From NCBI RefSeq assembly GCF_964213995.1, contig NC_135808.1:23188001-23252000 (forward strand): 64,000 bases of DNA. The letters run 5' to 3'. Each line of letters begins with the position of its first letter. Position 1 is the stretch's first letter. Below the pieces are notes generated by a model. It had not been told where the DNA came from, made no database searches, and was given only the letters and a program-made list of their open reading frames with translations. The translations under genes and the position numbers were made by a program. Origin of the DNA: Mustelus asterias (lineage: Eukaryota). Below, one piece after another: positions 33,844-56,848 of this stretch.

Positions 33844-36426
33844 CTATAAGTTCAGACGGTCAGGGGGACCGCACCATCGTTGTGACCTCCTCAATACCGG
33901 CGGTGACACCGGAGAAGGCACTTGCGGTGGCGTTCTCCCCAAAACGGCATCCAGCTGTTCTTCCACGGACTCACAGGCCGGTTGACCCTGAGGTGACGGT
34001 AGTCCAGGGGATCCTGACACACCCTGCGGTGGCGACCATCTTCTGGGCTCAGGCAAGCTGTACATGGGAGTAAAATGGTTAAGCAATGGTCCCGATGCTG
34101 CCCGCGCCGTGTCCGGGGAAGAAATGAGAGATAATGGGTTTGTTACTGGGGGTATGGGAGCAACAGGAGTTGCTACGTCCCCTGCTGGCGCCAGGTCTTG
34201 GATCGAGACCGTGTCCTCTTGCCCATCAGGGTATGCCACATAGGCATACTGAGGGTTGGCGTGGAGGAGATGGACCTGTTCGACCAACGGGTCGGACTTG
34301 CGGGCCCTTACACGTCGCCGTAGGAGGACGGGTCCTGAGTACGTCAACCAAGACGGTAAAGAGATCCCCGAGGAAGACTTCCGAGGGAATGAGAACATCC
34401 TCTCGTGGGGAGTAGCATTGGTTGCCAACGGGAGGGAGCGAATAGAATGGAGCGCATCAGGCAGCACCTCTTGCCAACGGGAGACTGGAAGACCTTTTGA
34501 CTTCAACGCCAATAAGACAGCCTTCCAGACTGTAGCATTCTCGCGTTCCACCTGTCCATTACCCCTAGGGTTGTAACTCGTAGTCCTACTAGAGGCAATC
34601 CCGTATGAGAGCAGGAATTGCCTCAAGTCATCGCTCATGAACGACGAGCCCCTGTTGCTATGGATGTAGCTGGGGTACCCGAACAGGGTAAAAAGATCAC
34701 GGAATGCCTTGATAACCGTGGCAGCGGATGTATCCGAGCAGGGAACAACAAAAGGGAACCGAGAGTACTCATCAATGATGTTTAGAAAGTACACGTTCCG
34801 ATCTGTTGAGGGAAGGGGGCCCTTAAAATCAACACTCAGTCTCTCGAAGGGACGAGTGGCCTTGACCAAATGTGCCCGGTCAGGTCGGTAAAAGTGCGGT
34901 TTGCATTCCGCGCAAATCCGACAGCTCCTTGTTACCGACCTGACGTCCTCCACCGAGTAAGGCAGGTTGCGGGCTTTTACAATGTGGTAGAGCTGAGTGA
35001 CCCCAGGATGGCACAGATTATTATGGAGGGCGTGCAAACAATCCTCCTGAATACTAGCGCATGTTCCACGCGAGAGGGCATCCGAGGGCTCATTGAGTTT
35101 CCCTGGACGATACATGATATCGTAGTTATAGGTGGAGAGTTCAATTCTCCACCACAAGATCTTGTCATTCTTGATCTTGCCCCTCTGCGTGTTGTTAAAC
35201 ATGAATGCCACGGACCGCTGGTCCGTGATCAGGGTGAACCGTTTTCCCGCCAAGTAATGGCGCCAGTGTCTGACGGCCTCCACAATGGCCTGGGCCTCCT
35301 TTTCCACCGCTGAATGCCGAATTTTGGGGCCTTGGAGGGTGCGGGAAAAAAATGCGATGGGCCTGCCCGCCTGGTTAAGTGTGGCGGCCAGGGCGAAATC
35401 AGATGCATCGCTTTCCACCTGAAAGGGGATGGACTCGTCTACCGCGTGCATCGTAGCTTTCGCGATGTCGTCTTTCAATTTCTTGAAGGCCAATCGGGCC
35501 TCTGGCGTTAGGGGAAAAGTCGTGGACTTAATGAGCGGACGGGCTTTGTCCACGTAGTTGTGAACCCACTGCGCATAATAAGAGAAGAAGCCTAAGCATC
35601 TTCTCAGTGCTTTTGCACGAGCAGGTAAGGGAAGTTCAGCAAGGGGGCGCATACGGTCTGGATCAGGGCCAATGACCCCGTTTTCCACCACGTATCCTAG
35701 GATGGCTAAACGGCGCGTACGGAACACACACTTCTCCCTGTTGTAGGTCACGTTCAGGCGAGATGCAGTGCGTAAGAAGTTCAGGAGGTTTGTGTCGTGG
35801 TCCTGCTGCTCATGGCCGCAGATGGTGACATTATCCAGGTATGGGAAGGTAGCCCGCAGCCCATTCTGGTCCACGGTTCGGTCCATAGCACGCTGGAAGA
35901 CCGAGACCCCATTGGTGACAACAAAGGGAACCCTGAGAAAATGGTACAAGCGACCATCCGCCTCAAAAGCCGTGTATTGTCGGTCCTCTGGGCGAATGGG
36001 GAGTTGGTGGTAGGCAGACTTGAGGTCTATGGTGGAGAACACCTGTTACTGCGCAATCTGATTGACCATATCAGATATGCGCGGGAGGGGATACGCATCC
36101 AGCTGCGTATATCGGTTAATGGTCTGACTGTAGTCAATGACCATCCGGGGTTTGTTCCCGCTCTTGACCACCATGACCTGTGCCCTCCACGGACTAACAC
36201 TGGGTTGTATGATCCGTTCTTTGAGGAGCCGCTGAACCTCAGATCTAATGAAGATCCGATCCTCAGTGCTGTAACGCCTACTTTTAGTCGCGATGGGCTT
36301 GCAGCCTGGCACAAGATTCTGGAACAGGGAGGGTGTGGTGATCTTCAGTGTCGAGAGACTACAGGCGCGTTGGGCAATTTGGAGGCTGCTGCTGTTTTCC
36401 CACTGCCAGTGAAGGGAATGGCCCAC
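33844..36426 (-). pseudogene. Gypsy pol (RT-RNaseH-integrase), disrupted
   Basis: RT motifs PRMVIDY, FSTIDLKSAYHQ and YLDN; RNase H motifs ESDAS and EKEAQA; integrase HHCC zinc finger and D-(N)-E core. There is an in-frame stop at 36046-36048 and a frame change from gag-pro near 36365. Confidence 0.92.
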
Positions 36427-37825
36427 CGTACTGTAGGATTACACTCCTCAAGTGGACCATGAAGTTTAGTCCGAGAAGTATTGGCGCGCAAAGATACGGC
36501 AACACAAGGAGCTTGAAGCGCTCGTAAGCTGTGCCTTGTACTTTCAAGGTTACCACGCAACTCCCTAGCACGGCAACAGACCGGGACCTTGATGCCATAG
36601 AGATTGTCTGTTTGGCAGGTTGAATCTGGAGTCCACACCTCTTCACAGTGTCTGGGTGGATAAAGCTCTCAGTGCTCCCGCTGTCAAACAGACAATAAAT
36701 CACATGATTATTTACCTGGATATTCATCATTGAACGGTCGAGTCTATGAGGCTTGGCCTGGTCCAGGATGATCGACGCCACCGTTGGTTCATGACCGCCA
36801 CTGCAGGCAGCTGAAATCGATGCGGAGGACCCCTGCTGGTCGTTCGTGGTCAGTGTCGACCAACATGGCTGCCGCCATGAATCGCACGTGGGCGAGGGCG
36901 CCAAACTCAGCCACCCCTGGTGGTCATACTCCTCCGACTCCGTTGACCGTAATGGCGTCGTCCTGGTCTCGCACGTGGACGAACCCCGCGACGACTTCGA
37001 CGATGATGATCCCAGCTCTGAAGAATCGCAGGCCGCACTGCCGTTCCTGGGTTTCGATTGGCACACTTTTGCATAATGCCCTTTTTTACCGCATGCTGTG
37101 CACAATACAGCTTTAGCGGGACACTTTTGCCGGGTATGCTTCGCTCCTCCACAGAAGCAGCACCGCGGGCTGCACGGGGCTGCAGCCGTCGTCTGGCCCG
37201 AATGGGAGCACGCCATTACACAGCATTTCGAACCCGAGGGGCGAGGAGGGATTTGCGACTGCTCCTGCAAAGTTGTCTCCACGTGGTCCTCTGGATATAA
37301 GACTAAGCTCTTTGAAGCCGACTCGAGCATCTCTGCTAACTCGATGGCCTGGGTAAGATTAAGGTTACCCTTCTCCAACAGTTTAAGTCGAATGTACGAC
37401 GATCCGACCCCGGCCACAAACGCATCTCGGGCGAGGTCGTACATGCTCTGCTCAGCCGACACAGCTTTGCAGTCACAGCCCCTGGCTAGCTGTAGGAGCT
37501 CATTGGCATAGTCCTCCATCGTTTCGCCAGACTGCCGTCGTCGAGTGGCTAGGAGGTAACGAGCGTGTATCTCGTTAGGTGGTTTTGTATAGCGCTTCTT
37601 TAGAAGCTCGAGGGCCTTTGGGTAATTAGTGGCCGCACAGATCGCGAGGTAGACAGTGTCGCTTACCCTCGCATGGAGGACCCGGAGTCTGTCATCATCT
37701 GTGGTGACCGCTGCGGAGGCTGCCAGGTAGTCTTCAAAACACTTCAGCCAGTGGTTGAAGGTGTTAGAAGCGCCCACCGCACGTGGATCTAGCGTAAGGC
37801 GTTCCGGCTTGAGAATTTGCTCCAT
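36359..37825 (-). CDS. Gypsy gag-protease ORF
   Basis: Two CCHC zinc knuckles (CCFCGGAKHTRQKC, CTACGKKGHYAKVC) and an aspartic protease motif LFDSGS. Confidence 0.9.
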   Translation of the reverse strand: MEQILKPERLTLDPRAVGASNTFNHWLKCFEDYLAASAAVTTDDDRLRVLHARVSDTVYLAICAATNYPKALELLKKRYTKPPNEIHARYLLATRRRQSGETMEDYANELLQLARGCDCKAVSAEQSMYDLARDAFVAGVGSSYIRLKLLEKGNLNLTQAIELAEMLESASKSLVLYPEDHVETTLQEQSQIPPRPSGSKCCVMACSHSGQTTAAAPCSPRCCFCGGAKHTRQKCPAKAVLCTACGKKGHYAKVCQSKPRNGSAACDSSELGSSSSKSSRGSSTCETRTTPLRSTESEEYDHQGWLSLAPSPTCDSWRQPCWSTLTTNDQQGSSASISAACSGGHEPTVASIILDQAKPHRLDRSMMNIQVNNHVIYCLFDSGSTESFIHPDTVKRCGLQIQPAKQTISMASRSRSVAVLGSCVVTLKVQGTAYERFKLLVLPYLCAPILLGLNFMVHLRSVILQYGGPFPSLAVGKQQQPPNCPTRL

Positions 37826-38521
37826 ACTTGCTCTCTTTTTTTTTCTCCGACGAGAGTTTAACGACAGTAAATAAAATTGATGCGCTATTCAGACACGAGG
37901 CTCGAAGCTCAGTAAATGAAGGCTTTTATTTACTGTTAATGAAGCTACCAGAACTTATATACACTATCCCAGACTGAAGGGGTCCCGGCCAGAGCAGGGA
38001 CTCTTATACCTCTCCCAGGAGGCGGAGCCCGACTGGGATGTGCCACAACACTACAATACAAAGGTGTAACAACCCCACCCTAACCCAACAGCAACAATAG
38101 CACAATCCAACAGTAACATATGTACATCCTTGTAGTCCTGGCCAGCCCCTGGCTCAGCACTATCCAGTGGGAACCAACGATGGTTCACCACAGAGGGTTG
38201 GTGCAAGTGGTGCAGCCGATGGGCCGAATGGCCTCCTTCTGCACTGAAGGATTGAGTTGTGTTGAGACAACCAATAAAGAGAGACGGGGGGGAAGGGGAG
38301 GGCGCGGTTGTTGATGTTCTGTGAAGTCCGTGTTGAAGTTGGAAGATTCTGGGTGAACTGAGGCAGTTTGATGCTGTTGTCCGGATTGTAACCGCGGGGA
38401 GACAGACCTGGGGCAATGCCATTGAGATGATGGAAAATGAGCTGCGGGATTGACTGTTGTCGGAAAGAGAGAAAGTTAAAATAAGTTTCAAATCAAAGCC
38501 GTGACTGAAGCGGATCCCCGG

Positions 38522-43345: not shown

Positions 43346-43883
43346 AACTTTCCACTCATTCAACACCAGCAAAACCCATCAAACCCCAAACAGCAGCAAA
43401 ACCCATCAGAGCTCCAAACACCAGCTAAACCCATCAGACCCCCAAACACCAGCTAAACCCCTAAGATTCACTCCGTTTCCCAAACATCCAGAAAAAGATC
43501 AAACCCATCACAATAAGTTAAATGTTAAATCCTGTGGGAGTGACACAGCCCAGTGACCAACTTCAGGGAAAAGTCTTGGGAATTCCAACTTCCTTAAGGA
43601 AATTGAGCAGCTGAGAGGAGGCTGTCCAGGGTGAGATGTTTCCGGATGTCTCGACACCTCAACACCCACAATGTCTCCACCCTCAGACTGTACAGGAGCA
43701 GCCGTCTCCAGAAGGCCAGTCTCAAAGCTCAGTGTTGGATTGGATGAGCTGCTCTTTAGTGACGATACAGCGAGAGACAGACACTGAGCTCACATCCCAC
43801 CCACCAGATTGTACAGCTAAATCCAGCGGGAATATCCCAGTTAGAAGGATCAACTCCCGATATTTATTCACACAATTCATACC

Positions 43884-43930
43884 TCAGGAACCTGCGGAGG
43901 AGCTGGTTGTGGAATCCCCTTTATCAGAAG
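43884..43930 (-). CDS. MHC class I exon 7, cytoplasmic tail end (TSDKGDSTTSSSAGS*)
   Basis: tttgacag|CTTCTGATAAAGGGGATTCC...GGTTCCTGAG|gtatga. The 48-nt exon (43883-43930) encodes a Ser-rich SD-containing tail with a stop just before the donor, as in other class I genes. Confidence 0.78.
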
Positions 43931-44171
43931 CTGTCAAAGGAAGGAGAGGCATTAAAAATACTGTTGGTCATCAGACAGAATCAGTGCATGAGATATGGAG
44001 AGATAAAGATAGAGAGAGAGAGTGAGAGAAAGGAGAGAGAGAGAGAGAAAGAGAGAAAGAGAAAGCAATTTATAAGTTATAAGTTCATTTATTGGTGTCA
44101 CAAGTAGGCTTACATTAACATTGCAATTAAATTACTGTGAAAATTCCCTCGTTGCCTGTTCGGGTAGATAC

Positions 44172-44507
44172 NNNNNNNNNNNNNNNNNNNNNNNNNNNNN
44201 NNNNNNNNNNNNNNNNNNNNNNNNNNNNNNNNNNNNNNNNNNNNNNNNNNNNNNNNNNNNNNNNNNNNNNNNNNNNNNNNNNNNNNNNNNNNNNNNNNNN
44301 NNNNNNNNNNNNNNNNNNNNNNNNNNNNNNNNNNNNNNNNNNNNNNNNNNNNNNNNNNNNNNNNNNNNNNNNNNNNNNNNNNNNNNNNNNNNNNNNNNNN
44401 NNNNNNNNNNNNNNNNNNNNNNNNNNNNNNNNNNNNNNNNNNNNNNNNNNNNNNNNNNNNNNNNNNNNNNNNNNNNNNNNNNNNNNNNNNNNNNNNNNNN
44501 NNNNNNN
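44172..44507. other. Assembly gap (336 N) in class I intron 6
   Basis: Run of N. Confidence 1.
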
Positions 44508-44593
44508 AGAGAAAGACACACACACACTATTTGACACAGAATCAATGGTGATTCACACAGTTACGCAGAGATGATGTTTGATGATCAGCTTAC

Positions 44594-44626
44594 TATTTGC
44601 AGGATTGTAGTCACTCCTCCCTCTCC
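44594..44626 (-). CDS. MHC class I exon 6, cytoplasmic tail (GRGRSDYNPAN in phase 1)
   Basis: ttttacag|GGAGAGGGAGGAGTGACTACAATCCTGCAAATA|gtaag. This 33-nt exon carries the YxxA motif typical of class I exon 6. Confidence 0.8.
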
Positions 44627-44739
44627 CTGTAAAACAAGGAATGTTCAGTGAGTGACGAGACTGAGAGAAAATCAGAGACAGAGGCTGGAACTCTCGCTCG
44701 CTCTGAGCCCCTACAACACAATTCTGAAATCCTCACTCT

Positions 44740-44912
44740 CACCCTGACCGGGACCCTCACTCCCACAGTGAACCGGGACCCTCACTCCCCCTCTGACCCG
44801 GGACCCTGACTCCCCTCTGACCCGGGGCCCTGACTCCCACACTGACTGAAGACCCTCACTCCCACACTGACTGAAGACCCTCACTCCCGCACTGACCCGG
44901 GACCCTCACAGA
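44740..44912. repeat. ~24-bp minisatellite in class I intron 5
   Basis: Unit ctgacccgggaccctcactccc(cac), about 7 copies. Confidence 0.85.
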
Positions 44913-45139
44913 TACCCTGAACTCGTCATTCAATCTGAGACCCTTCCCACAATTCACAGACACTCCCCCTTTATCTTGAGCCCTTTACCCTCCCTATCCC
45001 AATCCTGCGACTCTCCCACCCACTCTGTGCTCCCCCCCACACCAACCTGAGACCCACAGCCTGAGCCCCCCCACCCTGGAATACTCTCCCACAATCCCTC
45101 CCCCCAGTGAGGAGCTGCTCTTTTCCCTCCAATTCCTAC

Positions 45140-45233
45140 CTTTCTTGTTGTAGATGAATGATGAGAGCGATGAGCACGAGGACCCCGACCACAATCCCGA
45201 CAGTAACAGCAACCTGGGAGCGAGACTTGGGTT
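45140..45233 (-). CDS. MHC class I exon 5, connecting peptide and transmembrane segment, apparently frameshifted (94 nt)
   Basis: Acceptor aacag|AA follows a long pyrimidine tract. It reads EPKSRSQVAVTVGIVVGVLVLIALII then HLQQE. The expected FIYNKK(G) stop-transfer end lies in another frame just before donor AG|GTAGG. Confidence 0.85.
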
Positions 45234-45709
45234 CTGTTCGAGAGAGAATCAGAGAGACTGAGTGAATCAGGAAGAGGGAAAAGTGAGAATCAGAGAGAGA
45301 GAGAGAATGTGAGAGGAAGAGAGGAGAGAGAATGAGAGAGGAAGAGAGGAGAGAGAACCTGAGAATGATGGAGAGAGAGTGAATTAGAGAGCGAGAGAGA
45401 CAATCAGAAAACATAGAATACCTGACTCAGAACCTGGCCATTTGGCCCATCTAGTTGATGCTGGTGTTTATGCTCCATTTGATCCTCCTCCCATCATCCC
45501 TCATCGAAACTGACCATCTTAACTATATATTTCCTCCTCATTCATTCCCCTTAAACTATACTGTTCACTTCAACCACTCCCTGTGGCAGCGAGCTCCACA
45601 TTCACATCACTCTTTGAGTAAAGAAGTTTCTCTTGAATTCCCTATTGGGTTTCTTGGTGACCATCTTGTATTGCTGACCCCGAGTTACATTCTTCCCACA
45701 AGACCATCA

Positions 45710-52990: not shown

Positions 52991-53254
52991 CGTAAATCAC
53001 CACCAGTGTCTCCTTCATCCCGCTGTGTTCCACCCGACAGGAATACTCGGCCTGGTCCTCTGGATCAAACTCTACCCATTTCCGGATCTGGTAGGTGCTG
53101 TCGTGATTGGGTAAGATCCCACTGGACAGAGTCTCATCAATCACCACTCCATCTCTCCACAGATTCACCTCGATGTCTTGAGGGTAAAACCCGGTGACGA
53201 CACAGGACAGCCGGTTAGAATCACCCAGACGGGTAAAGGACACGACGGGGGAAA
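52991..53254 (-). CDS. MHC class I heavy chain exon 4, alpha3 Ig C1 domain
   Basis: Acceptor ctctcag|TT. Protein LSCVVTGFYPQDIEVNLWR...LPNHDSTYQIRK...YSCRVEHS carries C1-set motifs. Length 264 nt, donor G|GTAAGA. Confidence 0.96.
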
Positions 53255-53319: not shown

Positions 53320-54508
53320 TTCACCGACTCTCACTCCCCCCTCACTCACCGACTCTCACTCCCCATTTCACTCACCGACTCTCACTCCCCGACTCTCACT
53401 CCCCCTTCACTCACCGACTCTCACTCCCCCCTCACTCACCGACTCTCACTCCCCCCTCACTCACCGACTCTCACTCCCCCCTCACTCACCGACTCTCACA
53501 CCCCGACTCTCACTCCCCCCTCACTCACCGACTCTCACTCCCCCCCTCACTCACCGACTCTCACTCCCCCCTCACTCACCGACTCTCACTCCCCCCTCAC
53601 TCACCGACTCTCACTCCCCCCTCACTCACCGACTCTCACTCCCCCCCTCACTCACCGACTCTCACTCCGCCCCCTCACTCACCGACTCTCACTCCCCCCT
53701 CACTCACCGACTCTCACTCCGCCCCCTCACTCACCGACTCTCACTCCCTCCTCACTCACCGACTCTCACTCCCTCCCTCCCTCACCGACTCTCACTCCCC
53801 CCTCACTCACCGACTCTCACTCCCCCCTCACTCACCGACTCTCACTCTCCCCTCACTCACCGACTCTCACTCCCCCCTCACTCACCCCGCCCTCACTCAC
53901 CGACTCTCACTCCCCCCTCACTCAGCGACTCTTGCTCCCCCCCTCACTCACCGACTCTCACTCCCCCCTCACTCACCGACTCTCACTCCCCCCTCACTCA
54001 CCGACTCTCACTCCCCCCTCACTCACCGACTCTCACTCCCCCCTCACTCACCGACTCTCACTCCCTCCTCACTCACCGACTCTCACTCCCCCCTCACTCA
54101 CTGACTCTCACTCCCTCCTCACTCACCGACTCTCACTCCTCCCTCACTCACCGACTCTCACTCCCCCCCCTCACTCACCGACTCTCACTCCCTCCTCACT
54201 CACCGACTCTCACTCCCCCCTCACTCACCGACTCTCACTCCCCCCTCACTCACCGACTCTCACTCCCCCCTCACTCACCGACTCTCACTCCCCCCTCACT
54301 CACCGACTCTCACTCCCCCCTCACTCACCGACTCTCACTCCCTCCTCACTCACCGACTCTCACTCCTCCCTCACTCACCGACTCTCACTTCCCCCCCCTC
54401 ACTCACCGACTCTCACTCCCTCCTCACTCACCGACTCTCACTCTCCCCCTCACTCACCGACTCTCACTCCCCCCTCACTCACTGACTCTCACTCCCCCCT
54501 CACTCACC
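53320..54508. repeat. ~24-bp minisatellite filling class I intron 3
   Basis: Unit ctcactcaccgactctcactcccc, roughly 45-50 copies estimated from length. Confidence 0.97.
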
Positions 54509-54780
54509 GACTGTCAGTAATTTTTGTCCGTACTCCAGATATTTCCTCAGCCACTCGATACACTCCACTTCCAGGTAACGTTTCCATCTCTGGTTAATGA
54601 CCGTGCTGCCCTCCCACTTTTGTTTGGTGATCTCTCCCCAAGGGACGGGGGTCACCCACACCAGAAGATCCTTATCAAAACTGATAAAATCTCGTCCATC
54701 CCACCCGTACTGGTTGAATCCAGTCGTATTCCCATCATCACTCAGGTCACAGCCGGTCATCAGCTGGTGTATGTGGATCC
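54508..54780 (-). CDS. MHC class I heavy chain exon 3, alpha2 domain
   Basis: Acceptor ccacag|GG. Protein GIHIHQLMTGCDL...WDGRDFISFD...TKQKW...RYLEVECIEWLRKYLEYG has the Cys101/Cys164 pair and T143, K146, W147, Y159, Y171 equivalents. Length 273 nt, donor G|GTGAGT. Confidence 0.96.
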
Positions 54781-55113
54781 CTGTGGATTAGAAAGATAAC
54801 CTGCCAATCAGGGCCAGTCCCAATAAAAGCTGCACTCACCATGAACCCACCCAAACAGATCCGTTCCCACTGGAGGTCCAGCCACCACACACACACACAC
54901 ACACACACAGCCAATCCGGCCCCATCCAACTGGAGGCAAAGCCACCAAACACACACAATCAGATTCAGTTGACCAACAGACCTTACAGAGCTCATGCACA
55001 ACCTCAGTTAATCAGCCCCCAGTCCCAGATCCTGATCCGCTCCCAGTTTCTCCCACTCTGACCCAGACGCCCTGCATCCTGAGAAAGAGGCTGAGTGCTG
55101 GGAGTTTGAAGAC

Positions 55114-55374
55114 CTCCCGACTGGTTGGTTCGATACATGAGGGTCTGAATATTATCTTTGAAACATCGTTCCACCTCCTGTGCGAGCTTCTTCTTCTGTT
55201 CCCAGGACTCAAACCCCTCGCTCTCCACCATCCACTGCTCCCGGGGGATCAGCTCCCTCCGATCGCTGTCGTACAGAACAAACTGGACACCGTCCACATA
55301 ACCGACACCCACAAACTCCGGGAAATCCGGGATCGGAGTCATTCCCGTGAAGAAATACCGGAGAGAGTGAGAGC
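55114..55374 (-). CDS. MHC class I heavy chain exon 2, alpha1 domain (shark UAA-lineage-like)
   Basis: Acceptor tttcag|GC. It translates as GSHSLRYFFTGMTPIPDFPEFVGVGYVDGVQFVLYDSD...QTLMYRTNQSG, with the class I N-terminus GSHSLRY and the N86 glycosylation site NQS. Length 261 nt, phase 1-1, donor AG|GTCTTC (weak). Confidence 0.95.
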
Positions 55375-55610
55375 CTGAAATAGAGAGAGAGACATCATGG
55401 TATGTACCCCAAAACATTAATTTTAAACTGAGAGCAAGATCTCCACCCAGCCTGGCATTGCCCCTCTCACACCCCATCACTCACTGACCCAGGGTTCATG
55501 CCCCAGTACCCAGCCTGGCATTGCCCCTCTCACACCCCATCACTCACTGACCCAGGGTTAATGTCCCAGTACCCAGCCTGGCATTGCCCCTCTCACACCC
55601 CACCACTCAC

Positions 55611-55659
55611 CTGCAGACACCTCTCCACACAAAAGGACCAGCTCTATCAGTCCAATCAT
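55611..55659 (-). CDS. MHC class I heavy chain exon 1, leader peptide (MIGLIELVLLCGEVSA)
   Basis: The minus strand reads ATG ATT GGA CTG ATA GAG CTG GTC CTT TTG TGT GGA GAG GTG TCT GCA G|GTGAGT. This is a 49-nt phase-1 exon ending in a V-S-A signal cleavage motif, 236 nt upstream of the alpha1 exon. An in-frame upstream ATG at 55674 would add MREAA. Confidence 0.9.
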
Positions 55660-55772
55660 TGCTGCTTCCCTCATGTTGGGGGAAACATTTGGAGGAAACT
55701 CTTTTTCAAAGAAAGGCCATTTTCTCAACTCACTCCTTCTGTCTTTCCCTGTTTACACTGAGCCTCAATCTG

Positions 55773-55836: not shown

Positions 55837-55850
55837 CAGAATAGACACAA

Positions 55851-56025
55851 TGTGGAGATGCCGGCGTTGGACTGGGGTGAACACAGTCAGAAGTCTCACA
55901 ACACCAGGTTAAAGTCCAACAGGTTTATTTGGGAGCAAATACCATAAGCTTTCGGAGCGCTGCTCCTTCGTCAGATGGAGTGACCACTGTTGGACTTTAA
56001 CCTGGTGTTGTGAGACTTCTTACTG
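55851..56025 (-). mobile_element. Penelope pLTR fragment with inverted arm, inserted in the class I promoter
   Basis: It matches the 3' end of element 30867-32143. Inverted arms of 39 bp lie at 55884-55922 and 55987-56025. The 13-bp TSD is agaatagacacaa / agaagagacacaa (55838-55850, 56026-56038). Confidence 0.88.
55942..55978 (-). ncRNA. Minimal hammerhead ribozyme, same strand as the class I gene
   Basis: The minus strand reads CCAU CUGACGA A GGAGC-AGC-GCUCC GAAA GC UU AUGG, with a perfect stem II. Confidence 0.75.
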
Positions 56026-56848
56026 AGAAGAGACACAAACAAGTTGCGAAACTGCCTCAAGGTTTAGAACTGTCCAATCAGGTAAATACAGCTGCTGACA
56101 TCATCAGTTGCCGGGTCGAATCAGCTGAAAGGAGTTTGATACAGTGACAGAGGGAAGGACATTCAGAACAGCAGCAGGTCTGAGCGAACCATTCAGTGAG
56201 ATCACTGCTGATCTGGACCCCAGTTTCTGACTATAAACCATATCCTCAGATATCATTACCCAATAAAAATCTGTCACTCTGAGATTGAAAAGCTCCAATT
56301 GTTAACTTTTTATTGTGGAGAGACTGGATGTGGATTCCACACTGCTGAATTATTTTAGCATTCTAAACAAATCGATCAGATCACCCATCAACATTCTAAA
56401 AGCTGGGGAATAAAAACCCCTTTTATTTCACCTCCTTTTATTATTCTGGTGATCAGAACTGCACCCCCTCCAAGACCAATCTCCCCTTCCTGAGGTGTGG
56501 TGTCCAGAACTGAACACAGTGACTCCAGAAAGTGTCTGTTAAACTGAAGCTTCACTTCCATCACTTTATATACCAGCCCCCTCCAGATAAAGTTCAATGT
56601 GCCCTTAGAGAGAATGGTGAAATGGGCAGACACAAATACAATGCAGAGAAGCGTTTTAAGTGATGCAGTTTGAAGGGAAGAAAATGAACAGTTAATCTAA
56701 ACTGAATGGGACGGTTATAAAGGGATTGTGGGAACAGAGAGACCTGAGTGAATATGATGGTGGCAGGAAGGTGTGATAAGACTATTAAAGAAGCATCTGG
56801 ACCCCATTGCTTTATAAATAGCAGCACAGATTACAAAAGCAAGGAGGT

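What the first reader, a model, noticed from the sequence alone, without database searches (positions are those of the whole stretch)
43884..45233. Frameshifted TM exon: only the TM-skipped (soluble) class I isoform keeps the conserved tail in frame
Seen: exon 5 is 94 nt, entering in phase 1 and leaving in phase 2. The usual juxtamembrane FIYNKK is out of frame with the hydrophobic segment. Splicing 5 to 6 gives ...LIALII-HLQQERERE E and a TGA at 44613-44611, which loses YNPA and the Ser-rich tail. Exons 6 and 7 are still intact in phase 1, so splicing exon 4 directly to exon 6 is in frame. Known: class I exons are normally phase 1-1, and exon-5 skipping yields secreted class I. Inference: this is a recent pseudogenising lesion, a tail-less membrane form, or a gene biased to soluble product. 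The stop lies about 65 nt before the exon 7 donor, so NMD is possible.
Basis: partly seen in the sequence, partly recalled or inferred. Interest (0 to 1): 0.72.

Follow-up and report, generated by a model that had tools for sequence, protein, structure and literature searches.

The report
Dying shark MHC class I duplicate
An 11-base deletion shifts the reading frame of the membrane-anchor exon in one copy (and its near-identical twin) of a shark immune gene family of about 50 copies; the same copy has a damaged splice signal further upstream and all 12 genes of its branch carry breaks, so it is likely an ordinary decaying duplicate rather than a gene built to make soluble protein.

Summary
The frameshift is there as described. 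Exon 5 is 94 nt, splicing 5 to 6 stops at 44613-44611, and 4 to 6 is in frame. It is an 11-nt deletion: 46 of 50 TM exons in the cluster are 105 nt, and only this gene and its twin 407.6 kb away are out of frame.

The gene is a shark non-classical class I (UBA-type) copy. All 12 genes of its groove clade carry lesions, against 5 of 34 other genes.

The frameshifted exon keeps 19 hydrophobic residues, so its product would be a tail-less membrane protein, not a secreted one. A +4 acceptor in exon 6 could also restore the tail. No RNA evidence was obtained. RefSeq does model the exon 1-7 product.

Verdict: most likely a pseudogenising duplicate (0.75). This scan noted the cluster earlier on other DNA; three look-ups showed no note of this lesion.

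The parts
55843..56030 (-). 188-nt repeat insertion in the promoter, between an S-like motif (56046-56041) and the X-like box (from 55839); 8-nt target-site duplication TTGTGTCT
   Evidence: this insertion is shared only with the twin and the copy at 23.67 Mb; S/X/Y labels are recalled consensus
55611..55674 (-). Exon 1, leader, 64 nt, intact, donor GTGAGT
55114..55374 (-). Exon 2, alpha1, 261 nt, open; Ser where nurse shark 6LUP has the groove tyrosine (Y59 numbering recalled)
55108..55113 (-). Damaged intron 2 donor GTCTTC, from a 4-nt deletion of GTGAGTCTTC
   Evidence: 40 of 46 exon 2 copies have GTGAGT
54834..55062 (-). Cryptic donors in intron 2: weak in-frame ones after 55063 and 55057 (+17 or +19 aa), a strong one after 54840 that lies beyond a stop
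   Evidence: weight matrix recalled, approximate
54508..54780 (-). Exon 3, alpha2, 273 nt, open
53321..54516 (-). 25-nt minisatellite filling intron 3
52991..53254 (-). Exon 4, alpha3, 264 nt, open, both cysteines present
45140..45233 (-). Exon 5, TM, 94 nt; 19 hydrophobic residues remain before the frameshift
45156..45157 (-). Junction of the 11-nt deletion (paralogues carry GTGGCTGTCGT here)
44594..44626 (-). Exon 6, 33 nt; premature TGA at 44613-44611 in the shifted frame; possible +4 acceptor (exon start 44622) that restores the frame
43883..43930 (-). Exon 7, 48 nt, Ser-rich tail, stop 43886-43884, donor-like GTATGA
43863..43868 (-). AATAAA just behind exon 7, present in 5 of 38 copies, all in this clade

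Best explanation
This gene carries an 11-nt frameshift in its membrane-anchor exon and a 4-nt loss at its intron 2 splice donor, and it is likely a decaying, dispensable duplicate in a tandem cluster of shark non-classical (UBA-type) class I genes. Shown: the two deletions, a promoter insertion, breaks in all 12 genes of its clade, and 25 complete seven-exon paralogues without a lesion. Inferred: the weak donor GTCTTC would send many transcripts to intron retention or to the strong cryptic donor beyond a stop, giving no groove-bearing protein. Transcripts that do splice correctly would encode a 323-aa protein anchored by 19 hydrophobic residues with an 11-residue foreign tail. The donor loss and the promoter insertion likely came first, and the TM deletion was then tolerated because the gene no longer mattered.
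For: TM exon in frame in 48 of 50 copies. Donor GTCTTC in 3 of 46 exon 2 copies, scoring -1.0 against 6.0-12.4 for the gene's other six donors (matrix recalled). Groove tree: a clade of 12, support 100/99, 12 of 12 with lesions of different kinds: exon 2, 3 or 4 frameshifts, lost acceptors, missing exons. Outside the clade 5 of 34 genes with exons 2 and 3 have a lesion (a sixth was an alignment artefact). The sister at 23.65-23.67 Mb shares the donor loss and the promoter insertion, has an intact TM, and has its own exon 3 frameshift and two lost acceptors. The twin differs by 8 substitutions in 12,864 nt, one of them Tyr to Asp in exon 2. RefSeq P0036 (4 accessions, same C-terminus) starts inside exon 3.
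Against: Exons 1-4 have no stop or frameshift, the disulfide cysteines and proximal X/Y-like boxes remain, and only one recalled peptide-anchor residue differs from 6LUP. RefSeq models the exon 1-7 product through the GTCTTC donor under 3 accessions (P0035); the evidence behind those models was not seen. GT itself is kept, and two weak in-frame cryptic donors exist. The 12 clade members are about 5 independent lineages, multiplied by block duplication, so 12 of 12 overstates independence. The sister's exon 5 shares two variants with a non-clade gene, so conversion may have repaired it and the order of lesions is not proven. Nine non-clade leaders, most on coding-intact genes, also lack the S-like motif.
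Confidence: 0.75

Rival explanations
1. An expressed, tail-less membrane class Ib, working like HLA-G1. The weak donor is still used, the new AATAAA makes exon 7 terminal so the message escapes NMD, and the protein sits long on the surface because it lacks the YNPA motif.
For: 19-residue hydrophobic run, mean hydropathy 3.21 against 3.48 for an intact paralogue (scale recalled). RefSeq P0035 equals the exon 1-7 product. With exon 7 terminal the stop is 17 nt from the last junction (exon coordinates). PMC3021195 passages: HLA-G's short tail prolongs surface half-life.
Against: Damaged donor, promoter insertion and a fully broken clade. The other AATAAA-bearing copies, apart from the twin, are frameshifted genes.
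Confidence: 0.13
2. A gene biased to soluble product: exon 5 inclusion is removed by NMD, and exon 5 skipping gives a secreted 313-aa class I with the full tail.
For: 4-to-6 splicing is in frame. The stop is 65 nt before a donor kept in 34 of 38 copies. A private T-to-G change at -6 slightly weakens the exon 5 acceptor tract. Soluble class I is known in salmon (PMC2846915 passages).
Against: The in-frame skip follows from exon phases that paralogues share. No exon-5-skipped model is among the 3 members of this gene's protein cluster. No independent out-of-frame TM exon occurs among the other 48. The one clade member that lacks exons 5-6 is frameshifted in exons 2 and 4. The intron 2 donor lesion lies upstream of this isoform too.
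Confidence: 0.07
3. The deletion is an assembly or consensus error.
For: Contigs of runs X1-X3 show only the 105-nt form at this site, 0 of 3 with the deletion.
Against: The same deletion stands in two assembled copies that differ by substitutions. It is 11 nt of non-homopolymer sequence. Those contigs also lack this gene's private substitutions at 45229 and 45239, so they are collapsed family contigs.
Confidence: 0.05

Closest known systems
Elasmobranch UBA non-classical class I lineage (PMC10751288; nurse shark AAC60347; horn shark O19480 = P0017)
   Same: Multicopy tandem cluster (49 alpha3 hits in 21.6-24.7 Mb). Alpha3 matches 62 of 73 residues of the UBA reference printed in the paper's supplement (counted by eye). 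Ectodomain 204 of 266 identical to P0017.
   Different: This copy has a frameshifted TM exon and a damaged intron 2 donor, and its whole subclade is broken.
Mouse H2-Q10 (PMC2483932, passages)
   Same: Non-classical class I with a small frameshifting deletion in the TM exon (13 nt there, 11 nt here).
   Different: In Q10 the remaining segment is polar and the protein is reported as likely secreted and liver-expressed. Here 19 hydrophobic residues remain, and expression is not shown.
Human HLA-G1 (PMC3021195, passages)
   Same: Premature stop in exon 6 that leaves a membrane anchor and a short tail.
   Different: HLA-G is an expressed gene with known functions. Here the tail comes from a frameshift in a young duplicate with other lesions.
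Salmon Sasa-ULA, ZBA and UHA1 soluble class I (PMC2846915, passages)
   Same: Fish class I genes with no TM, or with a spliced soluble variant.
   Different: Those are expressed and lack or splice out the TM. Here the TM exon and both of its splice sites remain.
TM-exon lesions in the BALB/c class I family (PMC2189523, abstract passage)
   Same: A few of many paralogues (4 of 35) have frameshifts or stops in exon 5; here 2 of 50.
   Different: Mammalian cluster; the lesions there leave no membrane-spanning segment.

Membership tests
Elasmobranch UBA class Ib | Multicopy cluster on the chromosome that holds the other class I-like genes | tested here: met
   49 close alpha3 hits in 3.1 Mb; more distant hits mostly on the same contig
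Elasmobranch UBA class Ib | Close sequence match to a named UBA reference | tested here: met
   alpha3 62 of 73 to AAC60347, by eye from the supplement passage
Elasmobranch UBA class Ib | Groups with UBA in a tree with UAA, UCA, UDA and UEA references | not tested
   the trees held only this genome's paralogues
Elasmobranch UBA class Ib | Cluster flanked by c4 and rxrb | not tested
   feature from PMC10751288
Unprocessed (duplicated) pseudogene | Disabling lesions against intact paralogues | tested here: met
   TM frameshift, donor loss, promoter insertion; 25 complete lesion-free paralogues
Unprocessed (duplicated) pseudogene | Nearest sister copies collect further, different lesions | tested here: met
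Unprocessed (duplicated) pseudogene | No functional protein made | not testable with these tools
   needs copy-specific RNA and protein data
Q10-type secreted class I | Frameshifting deletion in the TM exon | tested here: met
Q10-type secreted class I | Remaining segment too short or polar to anchor | tested here: not met
   19 hydrophobic residues, mean hydropathy 3.21 (prediction only)
HLA-G-like tail-less class Ib | Premature stop soon after an intact anchor | tested here: met
HLA-G-like tail-less class Ib | Surface expression; lesion shared across individuals | tested here: inconclusive
   collapsed contigs cannot show the deletion; expression not tested

The most novel reading that the evidence does not exclude
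One copy of a dying subfamily has been turned into a soluble-output gene: the frameshift routes exon-5-containing messages to NMD, so exon 5 skipping yields a secreted shark class Ib with its full tyrosine- and serine-bearing tail. It would be a cartilaginous-fish counterpart of Q10 and Sasa-ULA, made by a splicing filter rather than by loss of the anchor.
Probability: 0.06. Interest if true: 0.5.

Novelty: new member of a known kind. Interest (0 to 1): 0.13.

Why it matters
As a pseudogene it matters little. It is one more case of birth and death in a class I cluster, though it shows a whole 12-gene groove clade decaying while block duplication keeps copying it, and it flags a RefSeq protein model (P0035) that runs through a damaged splice donor. 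If the soluble or tail-less product were real, it would be a secreted or endocytosis-deficient class Ib in the oldest lineage with MHC. One paper search (shark, soluble MHC class I, alternative splicing; 15 listed) showed no such shark report, but two key shark class Ib papers were not held.

Tried and rejected
No RNA holder was listed for 43600-45600, which is no evidence on expression. Contigs of X1-X3 showed only the 105-nt form and X12 laid nothing; the contigs are collapsed, so this says nothing on the deletion. Splice-junction counts from RNA runs were not obtained, so exon 4-5, 4-6 and 2-3 usage stays open. No alternative exon 5 donor scoring above 2 restores an open frame, and no exon 5 acceptor gives the TM in frame with exon 6. 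An exon 8 was looked for and not located: paralogues share about 520 nt behind exon 7 with no clear boundary, so the intron that NMD needs is unproven. The apparent +4 shift in the gene at 24.35 Mb was an alignment artefact and was dropped from the count. Two Fisher tests are not used: one carried that artefact and treats duplicated copies as independent, the other used ad hoc lineage counts. Searches (ORF list; no coordinates in headers) and the motif test (wrong pattern, redone) led nowhere. PMC8454915 and PMC7002201 were not held; PMC2187603 gave only a reference hit; PMC6523485 passages held nothing on soluble forms. No structure was predicted and no dN/dS was computed.

Full report
Observation. 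The gene lies on the minus strand with seven coding exons of 64, 261, 273, 264, 94, 33 and 48 nt. Exon 5 (45233-45140) is the only internal exon that is not a multiple of three. Spliced in order, the exons give 323 aa ending LIALIIHLQQEREREE, with TGA at 44613-44611, 65 nt before the exon 7 donor. Skipping exon 5 gives 313 aa with the normal tail.

Setting. The window is G000:C8:23188001-23252000. An alpha3 search gave 88 matches, 49 of them close copies within 21.6-24.7 Mb. Proteins from a contig of the same length are labelled Mustelus asterias. Alpha3 matches 62 of 73 residues of the nurse shark UBA reference in the supplement of PMC10751288 (by eye), and the ectodomain is 204 of 266 identical to horn shark O19480. 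PMC10751288 (passages, supplement hits) and PMC12562908 (passages) describe UBA as an expanded non-classical family. The UBA label was first suggested by earlier notes of this scan; I tested it by similarity and cluster layout, not by a tree with all lineages.

The lesion. About 0.9 Mb of targeted DNA from the cluster was assembled, so exons outside it may be missing from the counts. Of 50 TM exons, 46 are 105 nt, one 102, one 99 and two 94. The 94-nt form is an 11-nt deletion between 45157 and 45156. The second carrier lies 407,588 nt away in a duplicated block of more than 115 kb, 99.1-99.9% identical. Over the gene the two differ by 8 substitutions in 12,864 nt with no indel. Whether that block is a young duplication or an uncollapsed haplotype is not settled; either way the deletion is in two distinct assembled sequences. 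Contigs of three runs showed only the 105-nt form, but they also lack this gene's private substitutions, so they are collapsed and do not test it.

The intron 2 donor reads GTCTTC where its nearest paralogues read GTGAGTCTTC, a 4-nt loss. Of 46 exon 2 copies, 40 have GTGAGT, 3 GTGAAC and 3 GTCTTC. With an approximate, recalled matrix the site scores -1.0, against 6.0-12.4 for the gene's other donors. The strongest alternative in the intron (10.1, after 54840) lies beyond a stop; two weak ones would add 17 or 19 residues in frame. The same three copies carry a 188-nt repeat insertion in the promoter that moves an S-like motif away from the X-like box. PMC4374748 (passages) reports that the S box and its spacing matter for NLRC5 in mouse. 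This point is weak: 12 of 41 leaders with an X-like box lack the motif, 9 of them outside the clade.

The clade. A tree of exons 2 and 3 from 46 genes puts this gene in a clade of 12 with support 100/99. All 12 carry lesions: four an exon 4 frameshift, three an exon 2 frameshift with a lost exon 3 acceptor and no later exons in the DNA fetched, one frameshifts in exons 2, 3 and 4, one frameshifts in exons 2 and 4 with exons 5-6 gone, and three the donor loss. These are about five independent lineages. Of the 34 other genes, 5 have a lesion and 25 are complete and clean. The third donor-loss copy has an intact TM, which suggests that the TM deletion came later. Its exon 5 may have been overwritten by conversion, though, so the order is likely, not proven.

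What it would make. The frameshift falls after 19 hydrophobic residues (mean hydropathy 3.21, against 3.48 in an intact paralogue), so the default product is predicted to stay anchored, unlike mouse Q10 (PMC2483932 passages). An AG 4 nt into exon 6 would restore the tail with the TM kept. NMD needs an intron behind exon 7; the donor is kept in 34 of 38 copies, but no exon 8 was located, and an AATAAA at 43868-43863, in 5 of 38 copies, could end the message there.

Against the pseudogene reading. Exons 1-4 are open, and only one recalled peptide-anchor residue differs from nurse shark 6LUP. RefSeq lists the exact exon 1-7 product under three accessions (P0035) and a form starting in exon 3 under four (P0036); none of the 3 members of that protein cluster skips exon 5. 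The evidence behind these models was not seen, and no RNA data were obtained here.

Verdict. A real lesion in an ordinary decaying duplicate (0.75); tail-less membrane form 0.13; soluble-biased gene 0.07; assembly error 0.05. TM-exon frameshifts in a few paralogues are known from the mouse class I family (PMC2189523 abstract), and soluble fish class I from salmon (PMC2846915 passages). Interest 0.13.

Noticed in passing
window 30450-30387 (minus): Orphan class I leader exon with CTG in place of ATG and no proximal promoter match; the twin block has the same, and a copy at 24.37 Mb keeps ATG.
   Followed up: partly
G000:C8:24379469-24391559: Clade member with exons 5 and 6 deleted outright, so exon 4 is followed by exon 7; it is frameshifted in exons 2 and 4.
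   Followed up: partly
G000:C8:22.52-23.81 Mb and 24.35-24.69 Mb: The cluster is built from a block of about 410 kb repeated several times with near-identical genes; true duplication or uncollapsed haplotype is not settled.
   Followed up: partly
G000:C8:22942667, 23358492, 24560414: Three truncated clade members (exons 1-3 only); RefSeq-labelled proteins P0002 and P0032-P0033 join such an exon 3 to the next gene's exon 2, giving an alpha2-alpha1-alpha2-alpha3 chain.
   Followed up: no
G000:C8:22662870, 23069105, 23487560, 24688123: Four partial genes have a GC donor after the TM exon.
   Followed up: no
window 33847-37888 (minus): Long ORFs of 509 and 733 aa that look like gag and pol of an LTR retrotransposon (label recalled from motifs).
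   Followed up: no
window 55445-55610: 63-nt tandem repeat, 2.6 copies, at the start of intron 1.
   Followed up: no
G000:C8:23647988 (L053): Its exon 5 shares two variants with the non-clade gene at 23.30 Mb while its flanks are clade-type, a likely short gene-conversion tract.
   Followed up: partly
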